Of a DNA stretch of 64,000 nucleotides, positions 10,858-35,465 are shown in pieces. The stretch lies in NCBI GenBank assembly GCA_900553945.1, contig USFR01000003.1, positions 22,568 to 86,567 on the forward strand, read 5' to 3'. Positions within the stretch are counted from its first letter, which is position 1. The number at the start of each line of letters is the position of its first letter. The stretch comes from an uncultured Clostridium sp. Lineage in GTDB: Bacteria; Bacillota; Clostridia; TANB77; CAG-508. Made by a program: the position numbers and the translations under genes. Under the pieces are notes generated by a model that did not search any database, was not told the origin of the DNA, and was given only the letters and a program-made list of their open reading frames with translations.

Positions 10858-10924
10858 AAAAAATTAAAAAATGTCTTGACATATTTAAAGTATTAAATTA
10901 TAATAGGTCTTGCAGTTGAGAAAT

Positions 10925-11001
10925 GCGCCTTTAGCTCAGTTGGTCAGAGCAACCGGCTCATAACCGGTGGGTCCAAGGTTCGAATCCTTGAAGGCGCACC
11001 A
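10925..11001 (+). tRNA. tRNA with CAU anticodon (most similar to tRNA-Ile2/lysidine type; could be elongator Met)
   Basis: 77 nt GCGCCUUUAGCUCAGUUGGUCAGAGCAACCGGCUCAUAACCGG...GGCGCACCA. Cloverleaf with anticodon loop CUCAUAA. Body closely resembles Firmicutes tRNA-Ile(LAU). Confidence 0.8.
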
Positions 11002-11005
11002 TCTT

Positions 11006-11091
11006 GGGTAGGTGGTCGAGTGGTTAATGGCACCAGACTGTAAATCTGGCGACGAGAGTCTACGATGGTTCGAATCCATCCCTGCCCACCA
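11006..11091 (+). tRNA. tRNA-Tyr (anticodon GUA)
   Basis: 86 nt class II tRNA. Acceptor GGGTAGG/CCTGCCC with a G-U pair, anticodon loop CUGUAAA, long variable arm, CCA encoded. Confidence 0.9.
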
Positions 11092-11177
11092 AGACAAGTT
11101 TTCATCGAACTTTTTGAAAGTCTTGATATAACTTAATTCCAAGACAACAAAAATTTTGATGAACACAAAAATCTTAA

Positions 11178-11206
11178 ACCGTTTCAAAAGAAACGGTCTT
11201 TTTTTG
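11178..11206 (+). terminator. rho-independent terminator after tRNA pair
   Basis: AACCGTTTC/GAAACGGT hairpin followed by TTTTTTT. Confidence 0.75.
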
Positions 11207-11207
11207 A

Positions 11208-11510
<303 letters not shown>

Positions 11511-11637
11511 CAAGTCAAAAAAATTGATGTTTTAGAGTTTTTAAAAATTGTACTATATTGATTTATTAATTATGTTTAAAAGAAAAAATAGAGATAGTTA
11601 AAACAATAAATAAAAACTTTAAAGTGTCAATAGCTAA

Positions 11638-13525
<1,888 letters not shown>

Positions 13526-13538
13526 AAAATTTTAATAA

Positions 13539-13943
13539 ATGGAGAAATTGAAAATGGAAAATAAAAAATTAAAAGAAAATAATATTGATAATAAATATGG
13601 AATTGAATATAAAAAAGTTGGAGATTATTATATGCCTAACTTGGTATTAGAAAAAGAAAAAATTATATTAAATAAATATGGAAGAATGAGACTAAAATTT
13701 TTAAAAGAAAATAAGAAAGCAGAATATATGATAATGTTTACAAAAGGAATATTGAATAAACATTTAAAAGAGATTCAAGAAACAGCACAAACAAGAGTTA
13801 ACATTATAATTGAACAATTAAAACAACAAAATAATTTAACAGAAGAAATGAAAAATACAGACCAACTTTATTGGATTAGCATGATGAATAATTTTAAAAA
13901 AACAGCAGAAGAAATTATATTAAATGAACTAATATATGTGTAA
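13539..13943 (+). CDS. TnpV-like transposon-encoded protein
   Basis: About 130 aa. YYMPNL...YGRMRLKFL...NKHLKEIQETA...ELIYV pattern typical of the TnpV family found beside serine recombinases in clostridial elements. Start is 13539 or 13554. Confidence 0.65.
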   Translation: MEKLKMENKKLKENNIDNKYGIEYKKVGDYYMPNLVLEKEKIILNKYGRMRLKFLKENKKAEYMIMFTKGILNKHLKEIQETAQTRVNIIIEQLKQQNNLTEEMKNTDQLYWISMMNNFKKTAEEIILNELIYV

Positions 13944-13949
13944 GAAATT

Positions 13950-14100
13950 ACAGGTAGGAGCAAACAGACAAATGTATTGCCAAATTTAATGTCTATAAGT
14001 ATAGCGAGCATAAGTTTTGTATTGCCACAAAACCGACAGCTTAAGCTGAAATGGGAAAAATCTTCCCCTATAACCCCTACCTTATGAAATAAAAAGTTAA
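13950..14100 (+). other. Candidate oriT region
   Basis: Intergenic, just upstream of mobC-relaxase. Direct repeat GTATTGCCA(A/C)AA x2. Inverted pair GGTAGG...CCTACC. Short hairpin GGGAAAAATCTTCCC. Confidence 0.3.
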
Positions 14101-14197
14101 AAAAATAGATTAAAAATTGTATAAGGAATTAAAAGATTTTAAGAAAAATTTTATAAAAAAATAGAGCAAAAATTTATGAAAAAGGAAGTGAAAAATT

Positions 14198-14485
14198 ATG
14201 AGAAATAGAACAATAGGAATTAATGTTAGAGTGAGTGAAAATGAAAAGAAAAAATTACAAAGGAATGCTAAAAAGAGCAACTTGAATTTATCATCTTATT
14301 TAAGAAAAGCAGGATTACAAAAAGAAATTTATTCAATACCAGATGAAGAACTTCGTAAAATTTACAATGGAATTGTTGAACTAAAAAATGAGTTTTCTTA
14401 TATGAATGATGAAGAAATAAAAGAGAAAATAACAAAAATGCAAAGTGATTTTCTAGATATTTATAATTATAAAAAACGGAGATGA
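14198..14485 (+). CDS. MobC-like relaxosome accessory protein (ribbon-helix-helix)
   Basis: 95 aa. LSSYLRKAGL motif characteristic of the MobC family. Directly precedes the relaxase. Confidence 0.65.
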   Translation: MRNRTIGINVRVSENEKKKLQRNAKKSNLNLSSYLRKAGLQKEIYSIPDEELRKIYNGIVELKNEFSYMNDEEIKEKITKMQSDFLDIYNYKKRR

Positions 14486-14490
14486 TGTAG

Positions 14491-15861
14491 ATGGCAACAA
14501 CGAAAATATGGGCAATTAAAGATAGTATATCACGAGTAATAAGCTATGCAAAAAATCCAGAAAAGACAACATTTTCTGATTTGAAACAAGTATTAAAATA
14601 TGCAGAAAATGAAGAAAAGACTATTGATAATAATGAAAAAACTATGTATGTAACAGGAGTAAATTGTAATGCACAAACAGCCTATGAAGAAATGATAACA
14701 GTACAAAATAGATTTGATAAGACCACAGGAAATGTTGCATATCACGCATACCAAAGTTTTAAGACAGGAGAAGTATCGCCAGAATTAGCACACAAAATTG
14801 GAGTAGAACTTGCAGAAAAAATGTGGGGCGAATATCAAGTAGTAGTTGCAACACATTTTAATACAGGCACATATCATAATCATTTTGTAGTAAATTCCGT
14901 TAATATGTTTACAGGTAAAAAGTTTAATTGTAACAAAGGAGCATATTATCATTTCAGAGAGTTATCAGATAATCTATGCAGAGAATATGGTCTAACAGTT
15001 ATTGAAAAGCCAACAGGAAAAACACCAAGAAGTATATATTTTGCAGAAAAACGAGGAGAACCAACAAAGTATAATGTAATAAGACAAGCTATTGATGAAA
15101 CAATGGAAATGTGTATAAATTACGGGCAGTTTAAAAAGATAATGTTAAAAAAGGGTTATATAATCAATGATGAGTACAGCAGAAAATACCCAACAATTCG
15201 CTCAATAAATGATAAAAAAGCAGTAAGAATGTATCATTTAGGAGAAGAATATTTACCAAAGAACATTGCAAACAAAGTTGAACACAACCCTTATTATTAT
15301 CAAGATAGATATATGGAATTTATACATCCTAAAAAGAAAAAGCAGAGATTCAAAGTTTATAAATATAAAGGCAAATTCAAAGATATTAGTAAAATGAGTG
15401 GAATTGATGTGCTATTTCTACTGCTATTTCATTTATTAGGATTACTACCAAAACGAGAAAACTATAAACCACTATCTTCAGAAATGAAACAAGAAATAAG
15501 AAAAATGGAACGATATTCTAATGAAATTAGACTTATTGTACGCGAAAAACTAAAAATAACAGAAGATGTAAAAAGCTATATTACACAGACTGAAAAAGAT
15601 ATTGATAGTGTTACTAATTTAAGACAAAAATACAGAAATAAGCTAAGAAATTGTAAAGATGATAACTTAATAGAAGAATATAAAGAAAAGCAAAATGAAT
15701 GCACTACAATGCTAAATAAGTATAGAAAGAATCTAAAAATAGCTAATTGGATTTTAGAAGATACACCAAAAGTTAAAGAAGTTATCAAAATTGAAATGCA
15801 AATGAAAAATGGGCAAGAAGATATTACTAAAACAAAGAAAAAAGACAGAAACGCAAGATAG
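14491..15861 (+). CDS. Mobilization relaxase (MobA/VirD2-like)
   Basis: 456 aa. N-terminal relaxase domain with 3-His motif HFNTGTYHNHFVVN and an upstream tyrosine region. C-terminal coiled-coil-rich region. Confidence 0.8.
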   Translation: MATTKIWAIKDSISRVISYAKNPEKTTFSDLKQVLKYAENEEKTIDNNEKTMYVTGVNCNAQTAYEEMITVQNRFDKTTGNVAYHAYQSFKTGEVSPELAHKIGVELAEKMWGEYQVVVATHFNTGTYHNHFVVNSVNMFTGKKFNCNKGAYYHFRELSDNLCREYGLTVIEKPTGKTPRSIYFAEKRGEPTKYNVIRQAIDETMEMCINYGQFKKIMLKKGYIINDEYSRKYPTIRSINDKKAVRMYHLGEEYLPKNIANKVEHNPYYYQDRYMEFIHPKKKKQRFKVYKYKGKFKDISKMSGIDVLFLLLFHLLGLLPKRENYKPLSSEMKQEIRKMERYSNEIRLIVREKLKITEDVKSYITQTEKDIDSVTNLRQKYRNKLRNCKDDNLIEEYKEKQNECTTMLNKYRKNLKIANWILEDTPKVKEVIKIEMQMKNGQEDITKTKKKDRNAR

Positions 15862-15999
15862 AAAAATAAAGGTTGTTATAATAAAGATAACAGCCTTCAA
15901 CTATTTATAAGGAAATATCAATAAAAAGCTATGAAAATATTGAAAATTGTGATATAAATATATAGAAAAAATAAAAGTTAAAGAAAGGTTTGAAAAATT

Positions 16000-16656
16000 A
16001 TGAAAATTACAAAATTTCCACAATCATGTTTGCTAATAGAAGCGGAAGGAAAGAAAATTTTAGCAGATCCAGGAACATTAAAATACAAAGAAGAATATTT
16101 TGATACTTGGAATAATGTAGATATTATTTTAATAACACATAAACATCCAGATCATTGTAATACTGAAATATTAGAAAAGCTAAATAAAAATATAATAATA
16201 TATGCTACAAAAGAAGTTGCAGAAGCAAATAAAAGTTTAAAAATAAGTATTATTAAAGAAAATGATATTATAGAATTAGAGAATATAAAAATAGAAGTAG
16301 TACATGCAATACATGGATACCAACCATTATTAAAAGGTGCAAAAGAGGTACACGAAAATGTAGGATATATTATAGATGATGGAAAAAACAGATTATATAC
16401 AACAAGTGATACAATTTGTTTTAAAAATGACTATAAAGCAGATATTCTATGCATTCCAGTAACGGGATATGGACTAACTATGTCAGCATTTGAAGCAGCT
16501 TTATATGCAAAAGAAGTAGGAGCAGTGCTAACAATTCCAATTCATATGGATAATCCAGCATTTCCACCAGATTTTGACTTTATAAAAGAGATGTTTAAAA
16601 AATATGAAGTTGAGTATGAAATATTAGAGAATGATGAGAGCATTGAAATAGAATAA
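16000..16656 (+). CDS. MBL-fold metallo-hydrolase
   Basis: 218 aa. THKHPDH metal-binding motif. Confidence 0.75.
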   Translation: MKITKFPQSCLLIEAEGKKILADPGTLKYKEEYFDTWNNVDIILITHKHPDHCNTEILEKLNKNIIIYATKEVAEANKSLKISIIKENDIIELENIKIEVVHAIHGYQPLLKGAKEVHENVGYIIDDGKNRLYTTSDTICFKNDYKADILCIPVTGYGLTMSAFEAALYAKEVGAVLTIPIHMDNPAFPPDFDFIKEMFKKYEVEYEILENDESIEIE

Positions 16657-16694
16657 AAATACAAGTGCAAATTGTGTAGAAATAGGAGTTAAAT

Positions 16695-17267
16695 ATGAAA
16701 GTTTTAATATTAAGTTTCAGCAGTAACCAAGTCAATGAAGATAGTTTTATACCAAATAAAATAGGATTAACTTTTTCCTGTGTAGAAGAATGCGAAAAAC
16801 AATTAAAAACATTAAAATATGAATATGAACATATTTGTATAAATAAAAAGAATATAAAAAAATGTCTTGCATGTGGAAAAAGAGGTTGGGGAATTTGCTT
16901 AGATGAACATATTTGCATACAAAAAGATGATTTCAATGAGATTTATAAATATTTGGAAAATTTTGATGCATATGTATTTATTACTCCAGTATATTTTCAT
17001 GAGATGAGTGAATCAGCTAAAACTTTTTTTGATAGATTAAAAAGATGTGATGCTTTCAATGATAATTCAAAAATAAAAGGGAAGAAAATAGTTTGCATTG
17101 CTTGTGCAGGTGGAAGTGGTAGTGGAACAGAAGAAACATTAAAGTCATTTGATACATTAAATTACTTTTTAGGAACTGAAATGTATTCAAGAATACCAGT
17201 AACAAAAGCAAATTTTGAAAATCAAAAAGTGATTATAAGTGATGCAATGAAAATGGAGGGGAATTAA
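16695..17267 (+). CDS. Iron-sulfur flavoprotein-like NAD(P)H-dependent FMN reductase family protein
   Basis: 190 aa. Flavodoxin-like fold motifs (FITPVYF..S...K.FFDR). Compact Cys cluster CLACGKRGWGICLDEHIC (CX2CX7CX5C). Confidence 0.6.
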   Translation: MKVLILSFSSNQVNEDSFIPNKIGLTFSCVEECEKQLKTLKYEYEHICINKKNIKKCLACGKRGWGICLDEHICIQKDDFNEIYKYLENFDAYVFITPVYFHEMSESAKTFFDRLKRCDAFNDNSKIKGKKIVCIACAGGSGSGTEETLKSFDTLNYFLGTEMYSRIPVTKANFENQKVIISDAMKMEGN

Positions 17268-17268
17268 C

Positions 17269-18063
17269 ATGGAAACATTAGAAGAATATTTAGACTTTGC
17301 AAAAGATATAGCAAAATATGCTGGCGAAGTAATGATGAAATATTTTACACAGAATAATGGCGCAAGTTATAAAGGAGATAAAACTATTGTAACACTGGCA
17401 GACACAGAAATAAATTCATACTTAATAAAACAAGTTAAAGAAAAATATCCTTCTCATTCAGTAGATGGCGAAGAAGAACAGTTTGGTAAAAGTGATTATG
17501 TATGGGTATGTGATCCAGTTGATGGAACAGCAATGTATGCTAGACATATTCCAGTAGCAGTATTTTCATTAGCATTAGTTATAAAAGGAGAATCAAAAGT
17601 TGGAGTAGTATATGACCCATTTACTGATAGTTTATATACTGCTATAAAAGGTCAAGGTGCATATAAAAATGGAGAAAAGATAACTGTAAATGATTACAAA
17701 TTAGATGATATGAAAACAGTATGTCATTATGATTTATGGCCAGGAGCAGACTATAATATATCTAAAGTATTACAAGAATTAGGAAATAAAACATATATTA
17801 TTGGATTAGGAAGTATTATAAGAGCTTGTATGTGTGTAGCTTCTGGAGATTTTACTATTGCTATTTTTCCAGGTACAAAACATAAAAATTGTGATATTGC
17901 AGCAGTCAAAGTGATTGTAGAAGAAGCAGGTGGAACAGTTACAGATTTATTTGGAAATAAACAAAGATATGATGAAAGTATAAATGGAGCAGTTGTTAGT
18001 AATGGAAAAATACATAATGAAGTAACTGAAACTGTAAAGAAATATTTAAAAGATAGAAATTAA
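17269..18063 (+). CDS. Inositol monophosphatase family phosphatase (IMPase/SuhB-like)
   Basis: 264 aa. WVCDPVDGT and GLGS motifs. Confidence 0.8.
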   Translation: METLEEYLDFAKDIAKYAGEVMMKYFTQNNGASYKGDKTIVTLADTEINSYLIKQVKEKYPSHSVDGEEEQFGKSDYVWVCDPVDGTAMYARHIPVAVFSLALVIKGESKVGVVYDPFTDSLYTAIKGQGAYKNGEKITVNDYKLDDMKTVCHYDLWPGADYNISKVLQELGNKTYIIGLGSIIRACMCVASGDFTIAIFPGTKHKNCDIAAVKVIVEEAGGTVTDLFGNKQRYDESINGAVVSNGKIHNEVTETVKKYLKDRN

Positions 18064-18088
18064 CAAAAAAACAATTGGAGGAATTGAA

Positions 18089-18640
18089 ATGGAAAATTAT
18101 TTTATAATACATGAAAGTTTTGGGAGTCCATTTGAAAATTGGTTTAGTTGGTTACAAGATTTTATAACAACAGATGGAAAACAAGTATATGTACCACAAT
18201 TTCCAATAGGAGTTGGATATCAAAATTATGAAAATTGGAGTAAATTACTTAAATATTATTTAGATTTAGGATTAATCAATGAAAAAACAACAATAATAGC
18301 ACATAGTATTGCGCCAGTATTTGTTAGCAAATTTTTAGTAGAGAATAAAGTACAAGTAAGAAAACTAATATTTGTATGTGGATTTAACAACTATTTAGGA
18401 ATAAATGAGGAATATGATACAGTAAATAAGACAATGTATTTTGACAACTTAGTAGATGTAAAACAATATGCAAATGAAATAATATGTTTCTATTCAGATA
18501 ATGATCCATATGTAAAATATGAAGTAGAAAAAGATTTTGCAAATAAGATTGCAACAGAGCAAATTTTAATATCAAATGCAGGACATATAAATAGTGAAAG
18601 TGGATATGACGCATTTGAAGATATAGTAAGTTATATTTAA
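18089..18640 (+). CDS. YdeN/RBBP9-like alpha/beta serine hydrolase
   Basis: 183 aa. IIAHSIA nucleophile-elbow-like motif. Size and order match the YdeN family. Confidence 0.5.
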   Translation: MENYFIIHESFGSPFENWFSWLQDFITTDGKQVYVPQFPIGVGYQNYENWSKLLKYYLDLGLINEKTTIIAHSIAPVFVSKFLVENKVQVRKLIFVCGFNNYLGINEEYDTVNKTMYFDNLVDVKQYANEIICFYSDNDPYVKYEVEKDFANKIATEQILISNAGHINSESGYDAFEDIVSYI

Positions 18641-18653
18641 GGAGGAGTGAACA

Positions 18654-19040
18654 ATGAGAGAAAACAAATTAACAATATTTATTAACAAACCTGTAAAAGA
18701 AGTATTTGATTATTCGTTAGAGTCAAATAATGTTCCAAAGTGGATTATTCAAATTAAAGAAGAAATTCCAGAGGAAAGACCAGTTAAATTAGGAACACAA
18801 TTGAGAAATATTGGAGTAAATAGTAAAGAATGGAATAAATATGAGATGATTGAATTTGAACCACCAAAGACATTTACATTAAAAAAATTAAATGGTGATT
18901 ATTTTGTGAAATATACTTGTTCTGAAAAGGATGGAGGAACTGAATTTGAATATTTTGAATGGGCGGAAAATGGTGATTTAGATGCATTAATGGAAATGTC
19001 TGCATTAGAATTATTAAAAGAGCAAATCGAAAATATGTAG
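18654..19040 (+). CDS. SRPBCC (START/Bet v1-like) family protein
   Basis: 128 aa. Weak family resemblance only. Confidence 0.4.
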   Translation: MRENKLTIFINKPVKEVFDYSLESNNVPKWIIQIKEEIPEERPVKLGTQLRNIGVNSKEWNKYEMIEFEPPKTFTLKKLNGDYFVKYTCSEKDGGTEFEYFEWAENGDLDALMEMSALELLKEQIENM

Positions 19041-19060
19041 ATGATATAGGAGAGTGAAAG

Positions 19061-20086
19061 ATGAGTGATATAGTAAAACAAAATGAAGTATTTGGAAACT
19101 ACTACAATAGAATAAATTTATTGATTTTAAAGACAAAACAAAATGTTATAAAAAATATAAATTATGAGATGGTAGAATTATATTATGCTATAGGCTCTAC
19201 GATTAATGAATTAATTGAGGAATATCATTTAGAAGCTTCTCAAAATAAAATATTAAAGTCTTTTTCAGAAAAATTGACACGAGAATTTGGAGAAGGTTAT
19301 AGTGTACCTAATTTGAAATTAATGAAAAAATTTTATTTAACTTATAAAGGTGGTTACACACTGTGTAACCAATTAAGTTGGAGCCATAATCGTTTAATAA
19401 TGAATATAGATAATGAGGCTAAAAGAAATTTTTATTTGGAAGAAACTATAAAATCAAATTGGAGTGTTAGACAATTAGAAAGACAAATAAACAGTTTTTA
19501 TTATGAAAGGCTTTTATCAACAAGTGAAGAACATAAAGAAGAAGTAAAAGATGAAATAAATATTTTAGAGAAGAAGGAGAAAGTGCAAGATTTTATTAAA
19601 GATCCTTATGTTTTAGAATTTTTAGACATTAAAGATAGAAGATTTTTAGAAAAAGACCTAGAATCTAATTTACTTGAACATATTTCAGAGTTTTTATTAG
19701 AATTAGGTAGAGGATTTTCGTTTGTGGCAAGACAGAAAAGAATAGATGTAGATGGAGATAATTTTTATATTGATTTAGTATTTTACAATTATGTACTAAA
19801 GTGTTTCGTTTTAATTGATTTGAAATTAGACAAGCTAACCCATCAAGATATTGGACAAATGGATTTTTATGTTAGATACTATGATAATGAAATAAAGTCA
19901 GAAGATGATAATCCGACAATAGGAATAATACTATGCTCAGATAAAAAAGATACAATAGTAAAATATTCTGTTCTTAATGATAATAAGAATTTATTTGCAT
20001 CAAAATATCAATTATATTTACCAACAGAAGAAGAATTAGCGAGAGAAATTGAAAAACAAAAGGAAGAATTTGAAGATAAAGAATAG
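19061..20086 (+). CDS. DUF1016 (YhcG-like) PDDEXK-nuclease-domain protein
   Basis: 341 aa. Conserved N-terminal region (NYEMVELYYAIGS...) and C-terminal nuclease core FYIDLVFYN...CFVLIDLK, typical of the YhcG family. Confidence 0.7.
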   Translation: MSDIVKQNEVFGNYYNRINLLILKTKQNVIKNINYEMVELYYAIGSTINELIEEYHLEASQNKILKSFSEKLTREFGEGYSVPNLKLMKKFYLTYKGGYTLCNQLSWSHNRLIMNIDNEAKRNFYLEETIKSNWSVRQLERQINSFYYERLLSTSEEHKEEVKDEINILEKKEKVQDFIKDPYVLEFLDIKDRRFLEKDLESNLLEHISEFLLELGRGFSFVARQKRIDVDGDNFYIDLVFYNYVLKCFVLIDLKLDKLTHQDIGQMDFYVRYYDNEIKSEDDNPTIGIILCSDKKDTIVKYSVLNDNKNLFASKYQLYLPTEEELAREIEKQKEEFEDKE

Positions 20087-20141
20087 AGTGGTTCCACAGT
20101 GTGGAATCAGAAGATAGAAATAATATGGAGTATATATTAAT

Positions 20142-21755
20142 ATGGTAATAGATAAAATAAAAGTGAAGAATTATAAAATATTTCAAGAAAAAACCATACA
20201 TTTAAATGATAATGTAAATATTTTTGTGGGTGAAAATGATGCAGGAAAAAGTACTATTCTTGAGATTGTAAATTTAATAACAACAGGAAAAATTAATGGC
20301 TATTTTATAGATAGACAAATTACAGCTAATTTTTTTAATTATGAAGTAAGAAAGAATTATATAGAAAACATAAAAAGTGGAAAATATGCTGAATTGCCAG
20401 AAATAATGATAGAAGCTTATTGTAAAAATAAAGAAGATTCTGAATTTAGAGGAACAAATAATACATTGGGAGAAGACTGTCCAGGAATAGCATTTTATTA
20501 TACATTTAATCAAGATAATGCGGATATTTATAAGAGAAAATTAAAAGAAGGTGAGATACTTGATATACCACTGGAATTTTACAAAATTGAATTTATTGGC
20601 TTTCATGGAAATAGTATTACTAGCAAGTATTTACCATTTAAAGTTGCAACAATTGATGCTTCAAAAAGAGACTATAATAATTTGTTAAATAGATTTGTTT
20701 CAGAAAATATGGAGCAATTTTTATCAGATGAAGATAAAGTTATGTTAAGGTCTGAATATAGAAAAAGCATAATGAGTTTTAATAATATACCAAATATACA
20801 AGCATTAAATTCAAAATTGAAAGAAAATGTAAAATTGAATGAAAAAAGTATAAGTATTAATTTAAAAGATGAGAATGTTGATAATTGGAAAGAAGATATT
20901 GAGATAGCAGTTAATAATATACCGTTTGATAATATAGGATTTGGAAGTAGAAATTCAATGAAGATAGAATTAGCATTGCAAAATAATAAAGAGACAGTTA
21001 GTACACTTATTATTGAAGAACCTGAAAACAATTTATCTTATACTAATATGGCTAAACTAATTTTTAAAATTGAAGAAAACAAAGATAAGCAAATTTTTAT
21101 TGCAACACATAGTAGTTATATAGCAAATAAATTAGATTTACAAAATATACACATAGTACATAATGGAAATGTGAATAGTTTACAGAATTTAGATGATGAT
21201 ACAAGAGAATACTTTAAAAAATTACCAGGTTTTGATACCTTAAGAGTTATTTTAGCGAACAAAGTAATTTTAGTTGAAGGACCAGCAGATGACTTGATTA
21301 TACAAAGGGCATATAAAGATAAGTACCACAAATTACCGATTAATGATGGAATAGATATTATTGCAGTAAATGCATTAGCATTTAAGAGATACTGTGATAT
21401 TGCTATATTAGTAAATAAAGAAATAACTTTAGTTACAGATAATGATGGTAATATAAATGAAAATATTACACAAAAATATGATAAATATATAGGAAAAAGA
21501 AATATAAGAATTTGTTATGAAAAAGATGAAACTTTAAATACATTAGAGCCAAGTATTTTAGCAGCCAATACTATAAATGGCGAGATTTTGGATGATTTCA
21601 TTGATGGAATATCAAAAAATGGATCAATGAAAGGAAAAACAAGAGAAGAAATAAATAACTTTATGGAAAATAATAAAACAGAATGGAGTATGAGGATTTT
21701 TGATTATGAAAAAAATATAAGATATCCTCAATATATATTAGATGCAATCGAATAA
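20142..21755 (+). CDS. OLD-family ATP-dependent endonuclease (ABC ATPase + TOPRIM), GajA-like
   Basis: 537 aa. N-terminal Walker A FVGENDAGKST. C-terminal TOPRIM (VILVEGPADDLII...DIIAVN). Confidence 0.8.
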   Translation: MVIDKIKVKNYKIFQEKTIHLNDNVNIFVGENDAGKSTILEIVNLITTGKINGYFIDRQITANFFNYEVRKNYIENIKSGKYAELPEIMIEAYCKNKEDSEFRGTNNTLGEDCPGIAFYYTFNQDNADIYKRKLKEGEILDIPLEFYKIEFIGFHGNSITSKYLPFKVATIDASKRDYNNLLNRFVSENMEQFLSDEDKVMLRSEYRKSIMSFNNIPNIQALNSKLKENVKLNEKSISINLKDENVDNWKEDIEIAVNNIPFDNIGFGSRNSMKIELALQNNKETVSTLIIEEPENNLSYTNMAKLIFKIEENKDKQIFIATHSSYIANKLDLQNIHIVHNGNVNSLQNLDDDTREYFKKLPGFDTLRVILANKVILVEGPADDLIIQRAYKDKYHKLPINDGIDIIAVNALAFKRYCDIAILVNKEITLVTDNDGNINENITQKYDKYIGKRNIRICYEKDETLNTLEPSILAANTINGEILDDFIDGISKNGSMKGKTREEINNFMENNKTEWSMRIFDYEKNIRYPQYILDAIE

Positions 21756-22866
21756 TGCTGTTATTATGGCTGCTGCAGGAGCTGGAAAAACGCATGACAT
21801 TTGCAAAGAAGTAATAGAAAATGCAAAAACAACGAACAAAAAGATTTTAATTACAACTTATACTAATAAAGGTATTGATTCAATTAAAAAGGAATACAAA
21901 AAACAAAATAATGGTGTAATAGATAAGAATGTTATTATTTTGTCATGGTTTCAATTTTTATTGAGAGAGTTAGTAAAACCATATCAAAGTTCAATATTAA
22001 AAGGAATTAATATAATAAACTCAATAGATTTCAATCATCAATATGGATATATTAATTTTAGTTCTAGAGGAACACCTAAACACTATATACTTTCTAATAA
22101 TAATATATTGTCTAATACTGTTAGTGAATTTGCAATAGATAGTAATGTAAATTCAAATAGTAAAGTAATACAAAGATTAGAAGATATTTATTCCCATATT
22201 TATATTGATGAAATACAAGATTTGGCTGGCGAAGATATAGAGATATTAAACTTACTTTTTAATTCTAAAATAAGTGTACAATGTGTTGGTGATGTTAAGC
22301 AATCAACATATACTACATATAATGCTAAAAAGAATAAAAAAGTAACAGGAATATATTTTATAGATTATTTTAAACAATTAGAAATAAATGGCATAATAAC
22401 ATTAAGATTCAATAATAAAACTAGAAGATTTGGAAAGGAAATATGTGAGTTTTCAAATAGTATATTTGATGACAACAATAAAATAGAATCAGATACAATA
22501 TATAACAAAGAAAATCAAGGAGTATATCTTTTAGATAAAAAAGATTTTGAACAGTACTTTAAAATGTATAAACCTCAAGTTTTAAAATTTGATGCAAGAA
22601 CAAAAACAGATTATGATTCATTAAATTTTGGACAATGCAAAGGAATGACATTTGATAGAGTTGCAATATTTCCAAATAAAAAATATAAGGAATTTTTGCA
22701 GAAGAGAACAAGTTTAGACTCTCCTTGTAAATACTATGTTTCCGCTACTAGAGCAAAATATAGTATAGTATTTGTAGTAGAAAAATTATTTGAAAATGAT
22801 AGGTTTAAATATATGAATATAAAACTAGAAGATAGTAGTATAAAAGTATCAAAATATATGGTATAA
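21742..22866 (+). CDS. Compact UvrD-like helicase, GajB-like
   Basis: 374 aa. Motifs: I MAAAGAGKT; II IYIDEIQD; VGDVKQSTY; C-terminal GMTFDRVAIF and YVSATRAK. 14-nt overlap with the upstream OLD-family gene. Confidence 0.75.
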   Translation: MQSNNAVIMAAAGAGKTHDICKEVIENAKTTNKKILITTYTNKGIDSIKKEYKKQNNGVIDKNVIILSWFQFLLRELVKPYQSSILKGINIINSIDFNHQYGYINFSSRGTPKHYILSNNNILSNTVSEFAIDSNVNSNSKVIQRLEDIYSHIYIDEIQDLAGEDIEILNLLFNSKISVQCVGDVKQSTYTTYNAKKNKKVTGIYFIDYFKQLEINGIITLRFNNKTRRFGKEICEFSNSIFDDNNKIESDTIYNKENQGVYLLDKKDFEQYFKMYKPQVLKFDARTKTDYDSLNFGQCKGMTFDRVAIFPNKKYKEFLQKRTSLDSPCKYYVSATRAKYSIVFVVEKLFENDRFKYMNIKLEDSSIKVSKYMV

Positions 22867-23237
22867 GAAAATTGTTGAGAAAAAAATCAGAGAATTTTAT
22901 TAAAAAGTAAAATTTTCCTTGCTAAATACAAAAATTTATGTTAAATTAAAAACATAGTGATAGACAAAAAAACCAATATGGGTATACATATCTTTGAAAC
23001 TATTGCTATAACTGATTTTGAAACGGATAATAAGGTGCTTTTGTGCGAGACATTTTTCGAATACGTCCTCCGCTAACGCACCAAACACATAACTTTGGTT
23101 ATGTGTTTTTTTATGCTTAAAGATAGATAAAAAAGTTACAAGGTTTATTAGAATAATTGTTTTTATGCTGATTTTGTGATATAAGTAAAATGCAAAATTT
23201 AAAATATAATAAAAAATACTGAAAGGTATGAGAAGAA

Positions 23238-24146
23238 ATGGAAGAATCTTTACTTGAATTTTATTTGAATAAATTAGAATATAGTAATAAACCCGAGTTT
23301 CTAAATAAATATTTGAATGTTCCCTGTTTAAAGAGATTGAAGAAGATATGCTATTTTTGTGGAATGGATTATGCGTCAAAGCATATATATAATTTTAAAG
23401 AAAAGATTACAAGATATGATCATTCGTTAACAGTTGCTTTGCTAACTTGGAAATGTACAAAAGATAAAAAAGCAACTTTGGCAGGATTATTTCATGATAT
23501 TGCTACTCCTTGTTTTTCACATGTAATAGATTATATGAATAAGGATTATGCTAATCAAGAAAGTACAGAAGAGAATACGGAAAAAATATTAAAAAATGAT
23601 ACGTATTTGAGAAAGTGTTTGAAGGAAGATGATATTGAAATTGAAAATATTATTGATTTTAAGCAATATAATATCGTGGATAATAATCGACCCAAAGTAT
23701 GTGCAGATAGATTAGACGGAGTAATACTTACAGGAATTGCTTGGACAAAAAATGTGGATTATGAAGTTATAGATAATATTATAAATGATATAGAAATTTT
23801 TGATAATGAAATAGGATTTAAGACGAAAAGTGTTGCAAATAAAGTTTTAGAAATTAGTGAGAGTATTGATCTTTATTGTCATTCTAATGAGGATAATTAT
23901 ATGATGGAACTTTTAGCAGCTATAACTAAATATGGAATTGATAATAAATATATTACATATGAAGATTTATATGTGCTTAATGAAGAGGATTTAATTTACA
24001 GGTTAAAGAGCGTTAATGATTCAAAATTACTTGAGTATTTTGATAAATTTGAAAATATAACATTAGATGAAATCCCAAGTATTTGTTTACCAAATATAAA
24101 GATAAGAAGTTTAAATCCTTTAGTGCAAGGAAAGAGAATAAAGTAA
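23238..24146 (+). CDS. HD-domain phosphohydrolase
   Basis: 302 aa. H...HD...D metal-binding set (YDHSL, LFHDIATP, CADRLDG). Confidence 0.7.
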   Translation: MEESLLEFYLNKLEYSNKPEFLNKYLNVPCLKRLKKICYFCGMDYASKHIYNFKEKITRYDHSLTVALLTWKCTKDKKATLAGLFHDIATPCFSHVIDYMNKDYANQESTEENTEKILKNDTYLRKCLKEDDIEIENIIDFKQYNIVDNNRPKVCADRLDGVILTGIAWTKNVDYEVIDNIINDIEIFDNEIGFKTKSVANKVLEISESIDLYCHSNEDNYMMELLAAITKYGIDNKYITYEDLYVLNEEDLIYRLKSVNDSKLLEYFDKFENITLDEIPSICLPNIKIRSLNPLVQGKRIK

Positions 24147-25643: not shown

Positions 25644-27530
25644 GTGTGCGACAGGCATGTCGTTTAGCTAATCGGTGAGAGCCCGTATTGGAGGTATATA
25701 TCGCCAACCAATTAGAGAAACACAAGCTATCCATCGTGAGGTGGAAGTGGAGGAAGTGTGTATCAAAATCATGGCTCGATGTACAAAAACTTGATATTAA
25801 GGCTATGCAAGAGGGGAAGACTGCACAACAAGTCAAAGCCCAAAAGATATACGTAACCTTGTATAGTAAATCAAGCGAGTAAATGAGGAAAGTTAAACGG
25901 CTTACCCTGTGAGGTCTTGTGAGCATAGAGTAGTTAGGAAACGACGAGGAGTACATAGAATGAAGTATGGTCGAAAAAGGTTTATCACAAGAAGTCAGCA
26001 GAGGTCATAGTAGGAAAAATTTTTTTTTCGAAGGACTGAACAATTTGTAGTGTTTTCACTACCGAAAAATTTAGTGATAGATAATAGTTAGAATGTGTTA
26101 ATGAGGAGAGTATGAGCGTATCTCAGAGGGTTACTCAAAATCCAATATTTTATCTATCTACGGAAAGAAAAAGAGGAAACAGATATGGAACTTTTAGAAG
26201 AAATTCTTAATCAAAACAATTTAAACAAGGCATACAAGAAAGTTGTAGCAAACAAAGGTGAAGCAGGAGCTGATGGGATAACAGTAGAAGAAGAATTTGA
26301 TTACTTAAAAGAAAACAAAGACAGAATAATAAACCAAATAAGAAAAAGAAAATATAAACCGCAACCTGTGAAAAGAGTCCAAATACCAAAAGAAAATGGT
26401 AAAATGAGAAATCTAGGAATACCAACAGTGACAGATAGAATAATACAACAAGCAATATCTCAAGTAATAAGCCCAATTTTTGAAAAGCAATTTAATGATA
26501 ATAGTTTTGGATTTAGACCTAATAGAAGCTGTGAACAAGCAGTAATTAGGGCATTGGAATATTTGAATGATGGATATGAATGGATAGTGGACATTGACTT
26601 AGAAAAATTTTTCGACACAGTAAATCAAGATAAATTAATAACAATAATAGGAAAGACAATAGCTGATGGAGATGTGGTGTCATTAATTAGAAAATATCTA
26701 AGTGCAGGAGTAATGGAAAAAGGAATAGTTAAAGCAACAACAGTAGGAACACCACAAGGAGGAAATCTAAGCCCATTATTAAGTAATATAATGTTAAATG
26801 AACTAGATAAAGAACTTGAGGCAAGAGGACTAAACTTTGTAAGATATGCTGATGACTGTATAATACTTGTTAAAAGTGAAAAAGCAGCAAACCGAGTTTT
26901 GGCATCAATAACAAAATTTATTGAAAAGAAACTAGGATTAAAAGTAAATGCAGAAAAGAGCAAGGTAACAAGACCAACACAAACGAAATACTTAGGATTT
27001 AGTTTTTGGAAAAGTCCAAAAGGACAATGGAAACCAAAACCACACCTAAAATCATATCAAAAACTAGTAAGAAAACTAAAACAGTTAACCGATAGAAGTT
27101 TGAGTATTAGCTTAGATAATAGAATTAAGAAAATAAATTATGTTGTTAGAGGTTGGGTAAATTACTTTAGAATAGCAAATATGAAAAATAAAATCACTGA
27201 AATTGATGAACACCTAAGGGTAAGAATAAGAGTTATAATTTGGAAACAATGGAAAAAGATACGTAAGAAATGTGAAAGCTTACAAAAATTAGGAGTCCCA
27301 TTTGAAATAGCATTTAATTGTGCAAATACAAGAAAAGGTTATTATCAAATATGCAAAACTAGATATATACAGTTTGCAATAAATAATGAAAGATTAAGAA
27401 AAAGAGGTCTAGTATTCCTACTAGACCAATATGAAAAAGTTCATATTTAATATAAATTGAACCGCCACTTGCGAGAACCGCTTGAGTGGTGGTGAGAGAG
27501 GGGAAAAACACACTAAGTGTTATCCTCTAC
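25644..27530 (+). mobile_element. Group II intron (bacterial class C-like)
   Basis: 5' GUGUGCG/GUGCG at 25644-25650, directly after a terminator U-tract. About 540 bp of structured RNA comes before the IEP ORF in domain IV. A domain V/VI-like hairpin region follows the ORF (27455-27530), ending ...TATCCTCTAC. Confidence 0.8.
26185..27450 (+). CDS. Group II intron reverse transcriptase/maturase (no endonuclease domain)
   Basis: 421 aa. RT motifs RNLGIPTVTDRIIQQA, FGFRPNRSCEQA, GTPQGGNLSPLLSN and YADD. Maturase X domain RGWVNYF. Ends without an HNH/En domain. Confidence 0.9.
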   Translation: MELLEEILNQNNLNKAYKKVVANKGEAGADGITVEEEFDYLKENKDRIINQIRKRKYKPQPVKRVQIPKENGKMRNLGIPTVTDRIIQQAISQVISPIFEKQFNDNSFGFRPNRSCEQAVIRALEYLNDGYEWIVDIDLEKFFDTVNQDKLITIIGKTIADGDVVSLIRKYLSAGVMEKGIVKATTVGTPQGGNLSPLLSNIMLNELDKELEARGLNFVRYADDCIILVKSEKAANRVLASITKFIEKKLGLKVNAEKSKVTRPTQTKYLGFSFWKSPKGQWKPKPHLKSYQKLVRKLKQLTDRSLSISLDNRIKKINYVVRGWVNYFRIANMKNKITEIDEHLRVRIRVIIWKQWKKIRKKCESLQKLGVPFEIAFNCANTRKGYYQICKTRYIQFAINNERLRKRGLVFLLDQYEKVHI

Positions 27531-35235: not shown

Positions 35236-35465
35236 AAAAAATACATGGTAGGTGAGGCCAGTATAGGGATACGGGTTACTACCGCAAACTAGTGGAGACA
35301 CTACGCGCCGGTTAACAGAGAATGTCGATTCAAGGCATGCTTTAATGTGATTTCATTGCCCTATAACGCTGAAGCTTGTACGGTATATGAAATGTGGTTT
35401 AGGTTAATAATTATATTAATTTAAGTTCTTATTACTGTGCAAGCACGTAATAAGAACTTTTTTTG
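35236..35465 (+). promoter_or_regulatory. M-box (ykoK) Mg2+ riboswitch with terminator expression platform
   Basis: GGTAGGTGAGGC...GTATAGGGATACG...TACCGCAAA...GTTAACAGA...TATAACGCTGAAGCT conserved M-box blocks. Followed by terminator AAGTTCTTATTACGTG.../...CACGTAATAAGAACTT + TTTTTT. mgtE lies downstream. Confidence 0.8.

What the first reader, a model, noticed from the sequence alone, without database searches (positions are those of the whole stretch)
16000..22866. Eight-gene co-directional cargo operon ending in DUF1016 nuclease + OLD-ATPase/TOPRIM + compact UvrD helicase: candidate composite or novel defence system
Eight genes on one strand follow directly after the mobilization module of an integrative element. 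Intergenic gaps are 1-55 bp, and the last two genes overlap by 14 nt. The genes are: MBL-fold hydrolase, iron-sulfur flavoprotein-like, IMPase-family phosphatase, YdeN-like hydrolase, SRPBCC protein, YhcG/DUF1016 PDDEXK nuclease, OLD-family ABC-ATPase+TOPRIM, UvrD-like helicase. The terminal pair matches the Gabija (GajA/GajB) / class-2 OLD architecture. The upstream DUF1016 nuclease and five small enzymes are not part of described Gabija loci. Small-molecule-modifying enzymes (phosphatase, MBL hydrolase, flavoprotein) directly upstream of nucleases could be a signal-generating or nucleotide-modifying arm. This is the most plausible place for an undescribed multi-gene system here.
Basis: partly seen in the sequence, partly recalled or inferred. 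Interest (0 to 1): 0.75.

Follow-up and report, generated by a model that had tools for sequence, protein, structure and literature searches.

The report
Mobile element with Gabija cargo
The eight tightly packed genes are real, but they are interchangeable cargo of a 12-kb mobile element (a known two-gene Gabija anti-phage system, a separate candidate nuclease and swappable housekeeping-type enzymes), not one new eight-gene defence system.

Summary
Observation confirmed. Eight + strand ORFs lie at 16000-22866, with gaps of 38, 1, 25, 13, 20 and 55 nt and a 14-nt overlap. All eight family assignments hold.

Interpretation mostly not supported. The genes are the complete cargo of a ~12.0-kb serine-recombinase integrative mobilisable element (window 11092-23083) inserted at the CCA end of tRNA-Tyr.

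Related elements show that the cargo is a mosaic of at least four blocks that exchange independently. All breakpoints lie in intergenic spacers:
- MBL / FMN reductase / IMPase
- Ser-hydrolase / SRPBCC
- YhcG
- GajA-GajB

Sister elements keep YhcG-GajAB but carry other enzymes in the slot: Metallophos-NUDIX-HD, cupin-hydrolase-NUDIX-HD, dehydrogenase-GNAT-SDR, or unknown proteins. One has a Ppl-like gene and another a TPR protein in place of GajAB.

About 75 loci with 34-62% identical GajA, from many phyla, keep only the overlapping GajA-GajB pair. Close homologues of IMPase, Ser-hydrolase and YhcG (77-96%) occur elsewhere without Gabija.

Genes 7 and 8 are a compact Gabija subtype (537 + 374 aa) already covered full-length by PADLOC models. 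Gene 6 matches PADLOC candidate PDC-S02.

A side observation may be more interesting. The element's recombinase is split by +1 frameshifts at rare CGG codons, yet its downstream part remains under purifying selection.

The parts
11006..11091 (+). tRNA-Tyr. Its 3' CCA end is the left junction (attL side) of the element.
   Evidence: ARAGORN and Rfam. In the alignment of copies from different insertion sites, homology starts right after ...CCCACCA. In L007 the same element abuts tRNA-Leu.
11217..11510 (+). Small conserved ORF (97 aa, no Pfam hit) at the left end of the element.
   Evidence: An 88-94 aa ORF is present in all element copies.
11644..13525 (+). Large serine recombinase, split into a resolvase-domain ORF (11644-12075) and a recombinase-domain ORF (12089-13525) by a 1-nt insertion at about 12070 (AAT-C-GGT).
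   Evidence: Pfam Resolvase 3e-26 and Recombinase 2e-18. Frames and indels. An intact 604-aa version exists in L114.
13539..13943 (+). TnpV-family protein.
   Evidence: Pfam TnpV 5e-34.
14198..14485 (+). NikA-like relaxase accessory protein.
   Evidence: Pfam NikA-like 1e-17.
14491..15861 (+). MobA/VirD2-type relaxase. The conserved element backbone ends at about 15885-15897.
   Evidence: Pfam Relaxase 1e-38. blastn breakpoints.
16000..16656 (+). Gene 1: MBL-fold metal-dependent hydrolase (UPF0173-like), substrate unknown. Belongs to variable cassette block 1.
   Evidence: Block 15886-18066 has no counterpart in L107, L108, L121 or L114.
16695..17267 (+). Gene 2: NADPH-dependent FMN reductase / flavodoxin-like protein. 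Cassette block 1.
   Evidence: Pfam FMN_red 8e-18.
17269..18063 (+). Gene 3: inositol-monophosphatase-family phosphatase. Cassette block 1.
   Evidence: Pfam Inositol_P 4e-46. Homologues at 77-90% identity lie in chromosomal contexts without Gabija.
18089..18640 (+). Gene 4: YdeN-like serine hydrolase (PF06821). Cassette block 2.
   Evidence: Block 18067-19047 is shared with L121 at 96%. An 89% homologue lies upstream of IMPase in L105. An 84% homologue lies in another Gabija element, L113.
18654..19040 (+). Gene 5: SRPBCC (Polyketide_cyc2) protein. Cassette block 2.
   Evidence: Pfam 27.9 bits against a cut-off of 27.4. A 77-81% copy lies in the chromosome flanking L108.
19061..20086 (+). Gene 6: YhcG/DUF1016 PD-(D/E)XK nuclease with an N-terminal ParB-like HTH. 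Matches PADLOC candidate PDC-S02. Putative catalytic residues D238, D253 and K255. A separate exchangeable block (19048-20110).
   Evidence: (6.5e-128). Block boundaries. dN/dS 0.06 against L107.
20142..21755 (+). Gene 7: compact GajA (OLD-family ABC ATPase + Toprim nuclease, 537 aa). Walker A K36, Walker B E292-E295, H-loop H323, Toprim E379, DxD D433/D435.
   Evidence: PADLOC GajA 8e-166, full length. Invariant columns, sequence. AF2 model top PDB hits are BcGajA 8U7I/8SM3 at 2e-18. dN/dS 0.10.
21742..22866 (+). Gene 8: compact GajB (SF1 UvrD-like protein, 374 aa) with motifs I, Ia, II (DEIQD), III, IV, V and VI, and no 2B/Cacc insert. Overlaps gajA by 14 nt.
   Evidence: PADLOC GajB 2e-87. 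Sequence. AF2 model pLDDT 88.5. Top PDB hit is Gabija GajB 8TK1_F at 3e-14, then UvrD/PcrA/Rep. The overlap is conserved in about 75 loci.
22867..23083 (+). Conserved non-coding right end of the element, ending ...ACGCACCA. Identity among copies at different insertion sites stops here.
   Evidence: Alignment of seven copies. blastn end points at 23083-23085.
23083..23108 (+). Terminator hairpin just outside the element, most likely the displaced terminator of the tRNA-Met/Tyr operon.
   Evidence: Terminator scan. Its position directly after the junction. The assignment to the tRNA operon is inference.

Best explanation
The eight genes are the whole cargo region of a ~12.0-kb integrative mobilisable element (window 11092-23083). 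The element encodes a large serine recombinase, TnpV, a NikA-like protein and a MobA/VirD2 relaxase, and it is inserted at the CCA end of tRNA-Tyr.

The cargo is not one system. It is a mosaic of at least four blocks that exchange independently:
1. MBL hydrolase, FMN reductase and IMPase.
2. Ser-hydrolase and SRPBCC.
3. A YhcG/DUF1016 PD-(D/E)XK nuclease (PADLOC candidate PDC-S02).
4. A self-contained compact Gabija system, gajA-gajB.

Only block 4 is an established defence system.

Likely mechanism, by analogy with B. cereus Gabija (inferred, not shown here). GajA and GajB form a complex. Nucleotides bound to the ABC-ATPase domain of GajA keep its Toprim nuclease off. Phage replication, sensed as DNA ends and/or nucleotide depletion and helped by the DNA-stimulated NTPase activity of GajB, releases GajA to nick or cleave DNA, which stops the infection.

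YhcG is probably an independent nuclease-type defence or maintenance gene that rides next to Gabija in this element family. The five small enzymes are accessory genes of the house-cleaning/metabolic type, drawn from the host lineage's chromosomal pool. They may be co-transcribed with Gabija but are not needed for it.
For: Shown here:

1. Element and ends. Identical proteins and the same element occur at six or more different chromosomal sites in gut metagenomes. Homology among copies starts right after a tRNA CCA end: tRNA-Tyr in the window, tRNA-Leu in L007. It stops at window ~23083.

2. Gabija is autonomous. Of 80 genome loci from many phyla, about 75 keep GajA (median 537 aa) followed by GajB (median 374 aa), typically overlapping by 14-17 nt. 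No gene 1-5 homologue lies within 10 kb in any locus with GajA <=62% identical, and no YhcG is adjacent below 91% identity. Upstream neighbours are unrelated to each other: 45 singletons of 63, median gap 208 nt.

3. The cassettes are swapped. Sister elements (backbone 86%, YhcG-GajAB 89% nt identity) carry Metallophos-NUDIX-HD or cupin-DUF1749 hydrolase-NUDIX-HD in place of genes 1-5. L121 carries 2-hydroxyacid dehydrogenase-GNAT-SDR in place of genes 1-3 and keeps genes 4-5. L114 carries four unknown proteins plus a YhcG-family gene only 34% identical. L118 has a Ppl-like PHP+ATPase gene and L116 a TPR protein after YhcG in place of GajAB. All breakpoints lie in intergenic spacers: 15886, 18067, 19048, 20087-20110 and 23085.

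4. The other genes occur elsewhere. IMPase homologues (77-90%) and Ser-hydrolase homologues (85-89%) lie in chromosomal arrays of NUDIX, HAD, His_Phos and Ham1 genes without Gabija. YhcG at 91% lies between unrelated genes. Every YhcG homologue at 45-60% identity lacks GajAB within 7 kb.

5. Gabija looks functional. PADLOC matches are full length. Catalytic motifs are intact and collinear with BcGajA: K36/K35, H323/H320, E379/E379, D433-D435/D432-D434. All SF1 motifs are present in GajB. Fold searches return Gabija GajA and GajB as top hits. dN/dS is 0.06-0.12.

Taken from the literature: the mechanism of B. cereus Gabija (PMC8136825, PMC10781630, PMC10568477).
Against: - A YhcG-family gene sits directly upstream of GajA in four or more variants of this element family. 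In L114 the YhcG-family gene is only 34% identical while GajA is 82% identical. This could reflect a lineage-specific functional pairing rather than mere hitch-hiking.
- A Ser-hydrolase 84% identical to gene 4 reappears two genes upstream of a 69%-identical GajA in an unrelated element, L113.
- Three of the five cassette variants are rich in phosphoesterases (MBL, IMPase, Metallophos, NUDIX, HD), and Gabija senses nucleotides.
- No expression or phage data exist for this compact Gabija clade. It is very remote from the characterised B. cereus proteins: 16-18% identity in structural alignments, and sequence profiles of GajA and GajB did not reach any Gabija (GajA/GajB) PDB chain at the E-value limits used (0.001 and 0.01).
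Confidence: 0.8

Rival explanations
1. YhcG-GajA-GajB is a three-gene functional unit in this lineage. YhcG would act as an accessory nuclease, sensor or regulator of the compact Gabija, and only the five enzymes would be passengers.
For: - The triad is conserved, with similar dS (0.48-0.59) and strong purifying selection, between the window element and its sister family.
- A YhcG-family gene occupies the same position in L114 even though it is only 34% identical.
- The gap to gajA is 55 nt on the same strand.
- Both proteins are nucleases typical of defence islands. DUF1016 also sits inside Type I and next to Type IIG R-M loci (PMC9881135).
Against: - No YhcG is adjacent in about 75 compact GajAB loci at <=62% identity.
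- YhcG at 91-93% occurs with no Gabija (L116, L122-124), and in the same backbone it is followed by a Ppl-like gene instead (L118).
- All YhcG homologues at 45-60% identity lack GajAB.
- Recombination breakpoints fall exactly between yhcG and gajA, at 20087-20110.
- In L113 an unrelated 352-aa protein occupies the slot.
Confidence: 0.1
2. The variable small-enzyme slot is a counter-defence or nucleotide-pool-modifying cassette of the mobile element. It might degrade immune signalling nucleotides of the recipient, or tune the NTP level that Gabija senses.
For: - Three of five cassette variants contain phosphoesterases or nucleotide hydrolases: MBL + IMPase; Metallophos + NUDIX + HD; NUDIX + HD.
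- Precomputed annotation gives the gene 1 MBL a 'faint' hit to the Anti-Pycsar Apyc1 family.
- Gabija is regulated by nucleotides (PMC8136825).
Against: - The Apyc1 family does not appear in a direct Pfam scan of gene 1 at E<=0.01. Its nearest relatives are UPF0173-type hydrolases of unknown function.
- The L121 cassette consists of a dehydrogenase, a GNAT and an SDR, and the L114 cassette of unknown proteins.
- IMPase and Ser-hydrolase have 77-90% identical chromosomal homologues embedded in ordinary house-cleaning gene arrays.
- No such genes lie next to distant GajAB pairs.
Confidence: 0.06
3. All eight genes form one composite, previously undescribed defence system.
For: The block is tightly packed, has no internal terminator and is the longest such run in the window. 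The eight genes travel together in all near-identical copies.
Against: The near-identical copies are the same element, so they give no independent evidence. Every more distant comparison breaks the block apart at intergenic junctions.
Confidence: 0.02

Closest known systems
Gabija (GajA/GajB) of Bacillus cereus VD045; Class 2 OLD nuclease + UvrD-like partner
   Same: - OLD-family ABC-ATPase + Toprim protein, directly followed by an overlapping SF1 UvrD-like gene.
- Catalytic residues are collinear with BcGajA: K36/K35, H323/H320, E379/E379, DxD 433-435/432-434.
- The top structural matches of both models are the Gabija GajA and GajB chains.
   Different: - Very remote in sequence: 16-18% identity in the fold alignments. 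HMMER profiles did not reach any Gabija (GajA/GajB) PDB chain at the E-value limits used (0.001 and 0.01).
- GajA is 41 aa shorter, and the whole difference lies after the DxD motif. That is where the Class 2 Toprim helical insert should be (inference from motif spacing).
- GajB is 120 aa shorter and lacks the Cacc/2B subdomain, residues 314-416 of BcGajB.
- This compact subtype is already represented in PADLOC (models PDLC00102/00098 and PDLC00140/00148).
Class 1 OLD nuclease of Thermus scotoductus (PDB 6P74)
   Same: Best sequence-level PDB hit of the window GajA (8.6e-7 alone, 1.4e-9 with the profile). Similar length: 528 against 537 aa.
   Different: Class 1 OLD proteins are stand-alone genes. 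The window protein always has a UvrD-like partner, which is the context criterion for Class 2.
YhcG / DUF1016 PD-(D/E)XK nucleases (PADLOC candidate PDC-S02)
   Same: Full-length match at 6.5e-128, Pfam DUF1016_N + YhcG_C, and D238 ... D253-x-K255 present.
   Different: PDC-S02 is only a candidate single-gene system, and nothing here tests its function. Within this element family it is the most constant cargo gene.
Tn4451/Tn4453-type mobilisable transposons and other serine-recombinase integrative mobilisable elements (comparison from my own knowledge)
   Same: Large serine recombinase + TnpV + mobilisation gene(s) + a cargo region. About 12 kb. Found at many chromosomal sites.
   Different: - The relaxase is MobA/VirD2-type with a NikA-like partner.
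- The targets seen are tRNA CCA ends.
- The cargo is defence genes plus small enzymes, not an antibiotic-resistance gene.
- The recombinase gene carries +1 frameshifts in most variants.

Membership tests
Gabija (as detected by PADLOC; Class 2 OLD + UvrD-like helicase) | [quoted passage not shown] | tested here: met
   Pfam AAA_15 + OLD-like_TOPRIM. PADLOC GajA PDLC00102 at 8e-166 over residues 1-537. The AF2 model best matches BcGajA 8U7I/8SM3 at 2e-18.
Gabija (as detected by PADLOC; Class 2 OLD + UvrD-like helicase) | A UvrD/PcrA/Rep-like SF1 protein (GajB) encoded in tandem, directly downstream. | tested here: met
   ORF 21742-22866 overlaps gajA by 14 nt. PADLOC GajB at 2e-87. The pairing is conserved in about 75 of 80 loci. 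The fold search's top hit is Gabija GajB 8TK1_F.
Gabija (as detected by PADLOC; Class 2 OLD + UvrD-like helicase) | Intact Toprim active site (Glu, Gly, DxD) and ATP-binding motifs in GajA; SF1 motifs in GajB. | tested here: met
   K36, E292-E295, H323, E379, G403 and D433/D435 are invariant in 14 homologues. The residues match those listed for BcGajA. GajB motifs I-VI were read from the sequence and are invariant in alignment A5.
Class 2 OLD nucleases (Schiltz et al. 2019, as summarised in PMC10568477) | An extra helical insert in the Toprim domain that makes Class 2 proteins about 50 aa longer than Class 1. | tested here: inconclusive
   The window GajA is 537 aa, against 528 for Class 1 TsOLD and 578 for BcGajA. 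The 41-aa deficit lies entirely after the DxD motif: 102 aa follow D435, against 144 aa after D434 in BcGajA. This suggests the insert is absent or reduced, but no residue-level structural alignment was available.
B. cereus-type GajB architecture (prototype feature, not family-defining) | Four subdomains, including the C-terminal accessory (Cacc/2B) insert at residues 314-416. | tested here: not met
   Only about 65 residues separate motif IV from motif V. The AF2 model (pLDDT 88.5) shows the two RecA-like cores plus an N-terminal accessory insert, but no 100-aa insert in the second core.
Gabija | Anti-phage activity; 4:4 GajA:GajB complex; nucleotide-inhibited nuclease. | not testable with these tools
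   Requires experiments. Known only for the B. cereus system (PMC8136825, PMC10781630).
PDC-S02 / YhcG (DUF1016) | DUF1016_N domain plus a YhcG_C PD-(D/E)XK nuclease domain with catalytic D...(D/E)xK. | tested here: met
   Pfam 5e-38 and 2e-59. PADLOC PDC-S02 at 6.5e-128. D238, D253 and K255 are present in the sequence.
   The components separate at every level of divergence beyond the near-identical element copies.
Integrative mobilisable element (serine-recombinase type) | Recombinase + relaxase/oriT module, defined ends, and presence at different chromosomal sites. | tested here: met
   Pfam. Six or more insertion sites with different flanks. Sharp ends at 11092 and about 23083. The oriT itself was not located. 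The recombinase is frameshifted in this copy.

The most novel reading that the evidence does not exclude
In this family of gut-Firmicute mobile elements, the YhcG/DUF1016 nuclease is a lineage-specific third partner of the compact Gabija pair (a sensor, a second effector or an anti-anti-defence back-up). The enzyme slot upstream would be a hot spot where the element collects nucleotide-hydrolysing genes that modulate nucleotide-sensing immunity.
Probability: 0.1. Interest if true: 0.5.

Novelty: new member of a known kind. Interest (0 to 1): 0.2.

Why it matters
As a defence-system lead it matters little. Standard tools already call the terminal pair Gabija and gene 6 a PDC-S02 candidate, and the enzymes are passengers.

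Three things are still useful:

1. It is a clean, well-bounded example of a small mobilisable element whose cargo is rebuilt by exchanging blocks gene by gene at intergenic junctions. This shows how defence genes and host 'house-cleaning' enzymes get shuffled among gut Firmicutes.

2. It documents a very widespread compact Gabija clade (about 537 + 374 aa). The clade occurs in many phyla and on 1,702 plasmid records. It lacks the GajB 2B subdomain and probably the Class 2 Toprim insert, and I found no report of it being tested. Testing it would show which parts of the B. cereus machine are dispensable.

3. The element's recombinase shows a possible programmed +1 frameshift at rare CGG codons. 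This deserves its own follow-up.

Tried and rejected
- A megablast of the whole element against PLSDB plasmids found nothing.
- The repeat search in 10900-23400 gave only AT-rich chance matches. There were no terminal inverted repeats and no attC-like cassette sites.
- The promoter scan was uninformative: 84 sites found against 86 expected.
- The Apyc1 (anti-Pycsar) lead for the MBL gene was rejected. Precomputed tables list it only as 'faint', and a direct Pfam scan at E<=0.01 does not show it. The nearest solved structures and NCBIfam models are UPF0173-type hydrolases of unknown function.
- I first recalled TsOLD (6P74) as Class 2. The review shows it is Class 1.
- The 352-aa protein upstream of GajA in L113 was tested as a diverged YhcG. 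It shows no similarity and has no Pfam or PADLOC hit.
- L135 is too degraded to use.
- A literature search for frameshifting in serine recombinases found nothing relevant.
- The LsGajA paper did not give protein lengths, so I could not tell whether a compact Gabija has been characterised.

Full report
**1. Observation**

The eight + strand ORFs are at the stated coordinates. The gaps are 38, 1, 25, 13, 20 and 55 nt, and the last two genes overlap by 14 nt. NCBIfam and PDB sequence searches add no finer functional assignment for genes 1-5. Gene 1 resembles UPF0173 metal-dependent hydrolases, and gene 3 is an IMPase-family protein scoring below every equivalog cut-off.

Upstream lie resolvase-domain and recombinase-domain ORFs, TnpV, a NikA-like protein and a MobA/VirD2 relaxase. 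tRNA-Met and tRNA-Tyr lie at 10925-11091.

Co-directionality says nothing in this window, because 48 of 51 genes are on the + strand and the median gap is 42 nt. The eight-gene run with gaps <=60 nt is nevertheless the longest in the window. No + strand terminator-like site occurs before 23083.

**2. What the defence-model scan says**

PADLOC models match gene 7 as GajA (PDLC00102, 8e-166, residues 1-537 on a 532-position model). They match gene 8 as GajB (PDLC00140, 2e-87) and gene 6 as the single-gene candidate PDC-S02 (6.5e-128). Genes 1-5 match nothing meaningful.

**3. The block is the cargo of a mobile element with sharp ends**

Exact-sequence look-ups of GajA and of the IMPase found the same gene string, from recombinase to GajB, in gut-metagenome contigs at six or more different chromosomal sites. 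The left flanks include RecG/tRNA-Leu, sigma-factor genes and TetR/AMP-binding genes. The right flanks include HD, FtsY, DUF218, PDDEXK_5 and FtsZ genes.

Aligning the ends shows that identity begins right after a tRNA CCA end. This is ...CCCACCA|AGACAAG after tRNA-Tyr in the window and after tRNA-Leu in L007. Identity stops at ...ACGCACCA|, window ~23083. The hairpin terminator at 23083-23108 follows directly and is most simply the displaced tRNA-operon terminator (inference). The element is therefore about 12.0 kb (11092-23083), and the eight genes are all of its cargo.

Near-identical copies are one element. They give no independent evidence that the eight genes work together.

**4. Gabija stands alone**

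A degenerate-pattern scan of 185,579 species genomes with an alignment of GajA homologues returned 80 loci, with GajA 34-98% identical. The hosts include Bacillota, Planctomycetota, Rhizobium, Bacteroidales, Desulfobacterota and one Methanomethylophilaceae archaeon.

tblastn of all 13 element proteins against these loci shows GajB immediately downstream in about 75 of them. None of genes 1-5 lies within 10 kb in any locus with GajA <=62% identical. YhcG is adjacent only in the three near-identical copies. Median lengths are 537 and 374 aa, and the genes typically overlap by 14-17 nt.

The gene upstream of GajA is unrelated from locus to locus. Among 63 loci there are 45 singletons, and the largest clusters have three members. 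The median gap is 208 nt, and only 7 loci have a same-strand neighbour within 60 nt.

The clade is also on 1,702 plasmid records, mostly Klebsiella and Escherichia. There the genes are annotated 'AAA family ATPase' and 'UvrD-helicase domain-containing protein'.

**5. The small enzymes and YhcG occur without Gabija**

- IMPase at 86% identity lies next to a different MBL gene, a CMD/cupin gene and an aldo-keto reductase gene.
- IMPase at 77% lies between NUDIX/adenine-glycosylase genes and YebC/tRNA-methyltransferase genes.
- IMPase at 89-90% lies next to AAA+/S8 protease genes, or at the head of a long array of RibD_C, GNAT, NUDIX, HAD, His_Phos and MBL genes. In L105 an 89%-identical Ser-hydrolase lies upstream of it, the reverse of the window order.
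- A metagenome scan with YhcG returned 80 loci. Copies 91-93% identical sit with no Gabija and no element backbone (L122-124, flanked by a Metalloenzyme-superfamily gene and DUF4153/DUF5050 genes). Every homologue at 45-60% identity lacks GajAB within 7 kb.

**6. Sister elements show the cargo is modular**

A very abundant sister family (GajB 87% identical, listed in more than 1,000 index blocks) has the same backbone and the same YhcG-GajA-GajB. The slot after the relaxase holds Metallophos-NUDIX-HD or cupin-DUF1749 hydrolase-NUDIX-HD.

The window element was compared by blastn with the other variants:

| Locus | Window regions that match | Identity | Contents that differ |
|---|---|---|---|
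| L107 / L108 | 11086-15885 and 19048/19066-23085 | 86% and 89% | Nothing matches in between |
| L121 | resumes at 18067 | 96% | Keeps genes 4-5; genes 1-3 replaced by 2-hydroxyacid dehydrogenase, GNAT and SDR |
| L114 | resumes at 20087, the base after the yhcG stop | 84% | Slot holds four unknown proteins and a YhcG-family gene only 34% identical; its recombinase is an intact 604-aa ORF |
| L118 | ends at 20110 | 88.8% to the window (19048-20110); 99.5% to L108 | Same backbone as L108; a Ppl-like PHP+ATPase gene follows (PADLOC Ppl 2e-14) |
| L116 | 19066-20110 plus the element's right end | 90% and 78% | NUDIX-HD-YhcG, then a TPR protein, then the right end |
| L113 | only the two Gabija ORFs and gene 4 | 75% and 84% | Unrelated element that interrupts a cotJC-like gene |

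The cargo therefore consists of at least four exchangeable blocks, with junctions at 15886, 18067, 19048, 20087-20110 and 23085. All junctions are intergenic.

**7. Are the conserved genes functional?**

Between the window and L107, dN/dS is 0.06 for YhcG, 0.10 for GajA and 0.12 for GajB, at dS of about 0.5-0.6.

GajA keeps Walker A (K36), Walker B (E292-E295), the H-loop (H323), the Toprim Glu (E379) and DxD (D433/D435). These are invariant in 14 homologues and collinear with BcGajA K35, H320, E379 and D432/D434. GajB keeps SF1 motifs I, Ia, II (DEIQD), III (GDxxQS), IV, V and VI. YhcG keeps D238, D253 and K255.

**8. How this Gabija compares with the characterised one**

Sequence searches of the PDB reach only the Class 1 TsOLD (6P74) for GajA and PcrA/Rep/UvrD for GajB. 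They do not reach any Gabija (GajA/GajB) chain at the E-value limits used, 0.001 for GajA and 0.01 for GajB.

The AlphaFold models have pLDDT 79 for GajA and 88.5 for GajB. Their best PDB matches are the Gabija chains. GajA matches 8U7I/8SM3 at 2e-18, ahead of 6P74 at 4e-14. GajB matches 8TK1_F at 3e-14, ahead of UvrD.

GajA is 41 aa shorter than BcGajA, and the whole deficit lies after the DxD motif. That is where the Class 2 Toprim helical insert is described. The conclusion that the insert is reduced or missing is an inference from spacing.

GajB is 120 aa shorter than BcGajB and has no room for the Cacc/2B subdomain (BcGajB residues 314-416). The model shows none.

By the context criterion (an OLD nuclease in tandem with a UvrD-like helicase) and by PADLOC, this is Gabija. 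It belongs to a compact subtype that is already catalogued. I found no report of it being tested experimentally.

**9. Most likely function**

Shown here: a 12-kb tRNA-targeting mobilisable element carries an intact, selected, self-contained gajAB pair, a separately assorting YhcG nuclease and interchangeable small enzymes.

Inferred from the B. cereus system (PMC8136825, PMC10781630, PMC10568477): GajA and GajB assemble into a complex. Nucleotide binding keeps the Toprim nuclease silent. Phage-induced nucleotide depletion or DNA ends, together with the NTPase activity of GajB, release it to cut DNA.

Inferred: the element gains by protecting its host. The enzymes are accessory genes recruited from the host lineage's chromosomal pool of house-cleaning enzymes. 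They may be co-transcribed with the defence genes but are functionally independent of them.

**10. Rivals**

A lineage-specific YhcG-GajAB triad remains possible, at about 0.1. The position of a YhcG-family gene is kept even in L114, where it is only 34% identical. Against this stand the breakpoints between yhcG and gajA, the Ppl-like and TPR replacements, and the Gabija-free YhcG copies.

A counter-defence or nucleotide-modulating role for the enzyme slot is weaker, at about 0.06. Two of the five cassette variants have no nucleotide hydrolases, and the genes have close chromosomal homologues.

The full eight-gene system is contradicted by the comparative data.

**11. Verdict**

The interpretation as a composite or novel system is not supported. 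Novelty: a new member of known kinds (a compact Gabija and a PDC-S02 candidate on a serine-recombinase mobilisable element). Interest is low for the finding itself.

The frameshifted recombinase, described under 'noticed in passing', is the most surprising thing seen in this locus.

Noticed in passing
window 11644-13525 (site A at 12068-12074); L007 ~4920; L107 1216-1386; L114 663-2477: The element's serine recombinase is split by 1-nt insertions at two sites of identical form, [codon]-C-GGN. Site A is AAT-C-GGT (window, L107, L108, L112). Site B is CCA-C-GGA (L007, L010, L106, L107, L108, L112). L114 has neither and encodes an intact 604-aa protein.

At both sites the 0-frame codon is CGG and the +1 frame restores Gly and the normal protein. 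CGG is the rarest Arg codon here, jointly with CGC: 7 of 18,276 codons, and one of the seven is this site.

The ORF downstream of the shifts is under purifying selection between frameshifted lineages (dN/dS 0.12 at dS 0.66). The frameshifted elements also occur at many insertion sites.

This is a candidate programmed +1 ribosomal frameshift at a 'hungry' CGG codon. The alternative is recurrent or recombined pseudogenisation.
   Followed up: partly
window 11067-11092 and 23060-23108; L007 3722-3806: The element sits directly after the CCA end of tRNA-Tyr in the window and of tRNA-Leu in L007. Its own right end also finishes ...GCACCA, so the shared core is CACCA. The hairpin terminator at 23083-23108 looks like the displaced tRNA terminator.
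   Followed up: partly
L007 16682-16966 and 16970-17512: About 870 nt after the right end of the element in L007 there is a second, 90%-identical copy of the element's left end (equivalent to window 11087-11371), followed by a YhcG_C fragment. This suggests tandem accretion of related elements at one site.
   Followed up: no
L113 4578-13568: A different element (~8.4 kb) interrupts a cotJC-like Mn-catalase gene, which is split into 72-aa and 132-aa parts. It carries an HTH gene, a 519-aa serine recombinase on the opposite strand, a Ser-hydrolase 84% identical to gene 4, an unknown 352-aa protein, GajAB (69/67%) and RhuM. It may be a sporulation-gene intervening element that carries Gabija.
   Followed up: no
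L118 8085-9779; L116 8044-9651: In the same element backbone, the position after YhcG can hold a Ppl-like PHP + ABC-ATPase gene (PADLOC Ppl 2e-14) or a 535-aa TPR protein in place of GajAB. This position acts as a defence-cargo slot.
   Followed up: partly
window 25730-27450: A group II intron: Rfam group-II-D1D4-3 (129 bits) and D1D4-1 (48 bits) at 25730-26036, followed by an RVT_1 + GIIM maturase ORF at 26185-27450.
   Followed up: no
window 35237-35392: An M-box (Mg2+) riboswitch at 96 bits, upstream of the ORF at 35596-36927.
   Followed up: no
L104 1-9100; L097 2798-7637: Chromosomes of the host lineage carry long co-directional arrays of small 'house-cleaning' enzymes: IMPase, RibD_C, GNAT, NUDIX x2-3, HAD, His_Phos, Ham1, NT5C, CYTH and an MBL with a solid Apyc1-family hit. 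These arrays are the likely source pool for the element's enzyme cassettes.
   Followed up: partly
L035 (Candidatus Methanomethylophilaceae archaeon contig); plasmid hits H1-H12: The compact GajAB pair (48/41% identity) is present on a contig assigned to a gut methanogenic archaeon. Homologues below 60% identity occur on 1,702 plasmid records, including 780 from Klebsiella and 654 from Escherichia.
   Followed up: no
window 19274-19303: The best sigma-70-like match in the region (TTGACA, 18 nt, TATAGT; 11 of 12) lies inside yhcG, about 840 nt upstream of gajA. It could give gajAB its own transcript, but the scan as a whole is no better than shuffled sequence.
   Followed up: no
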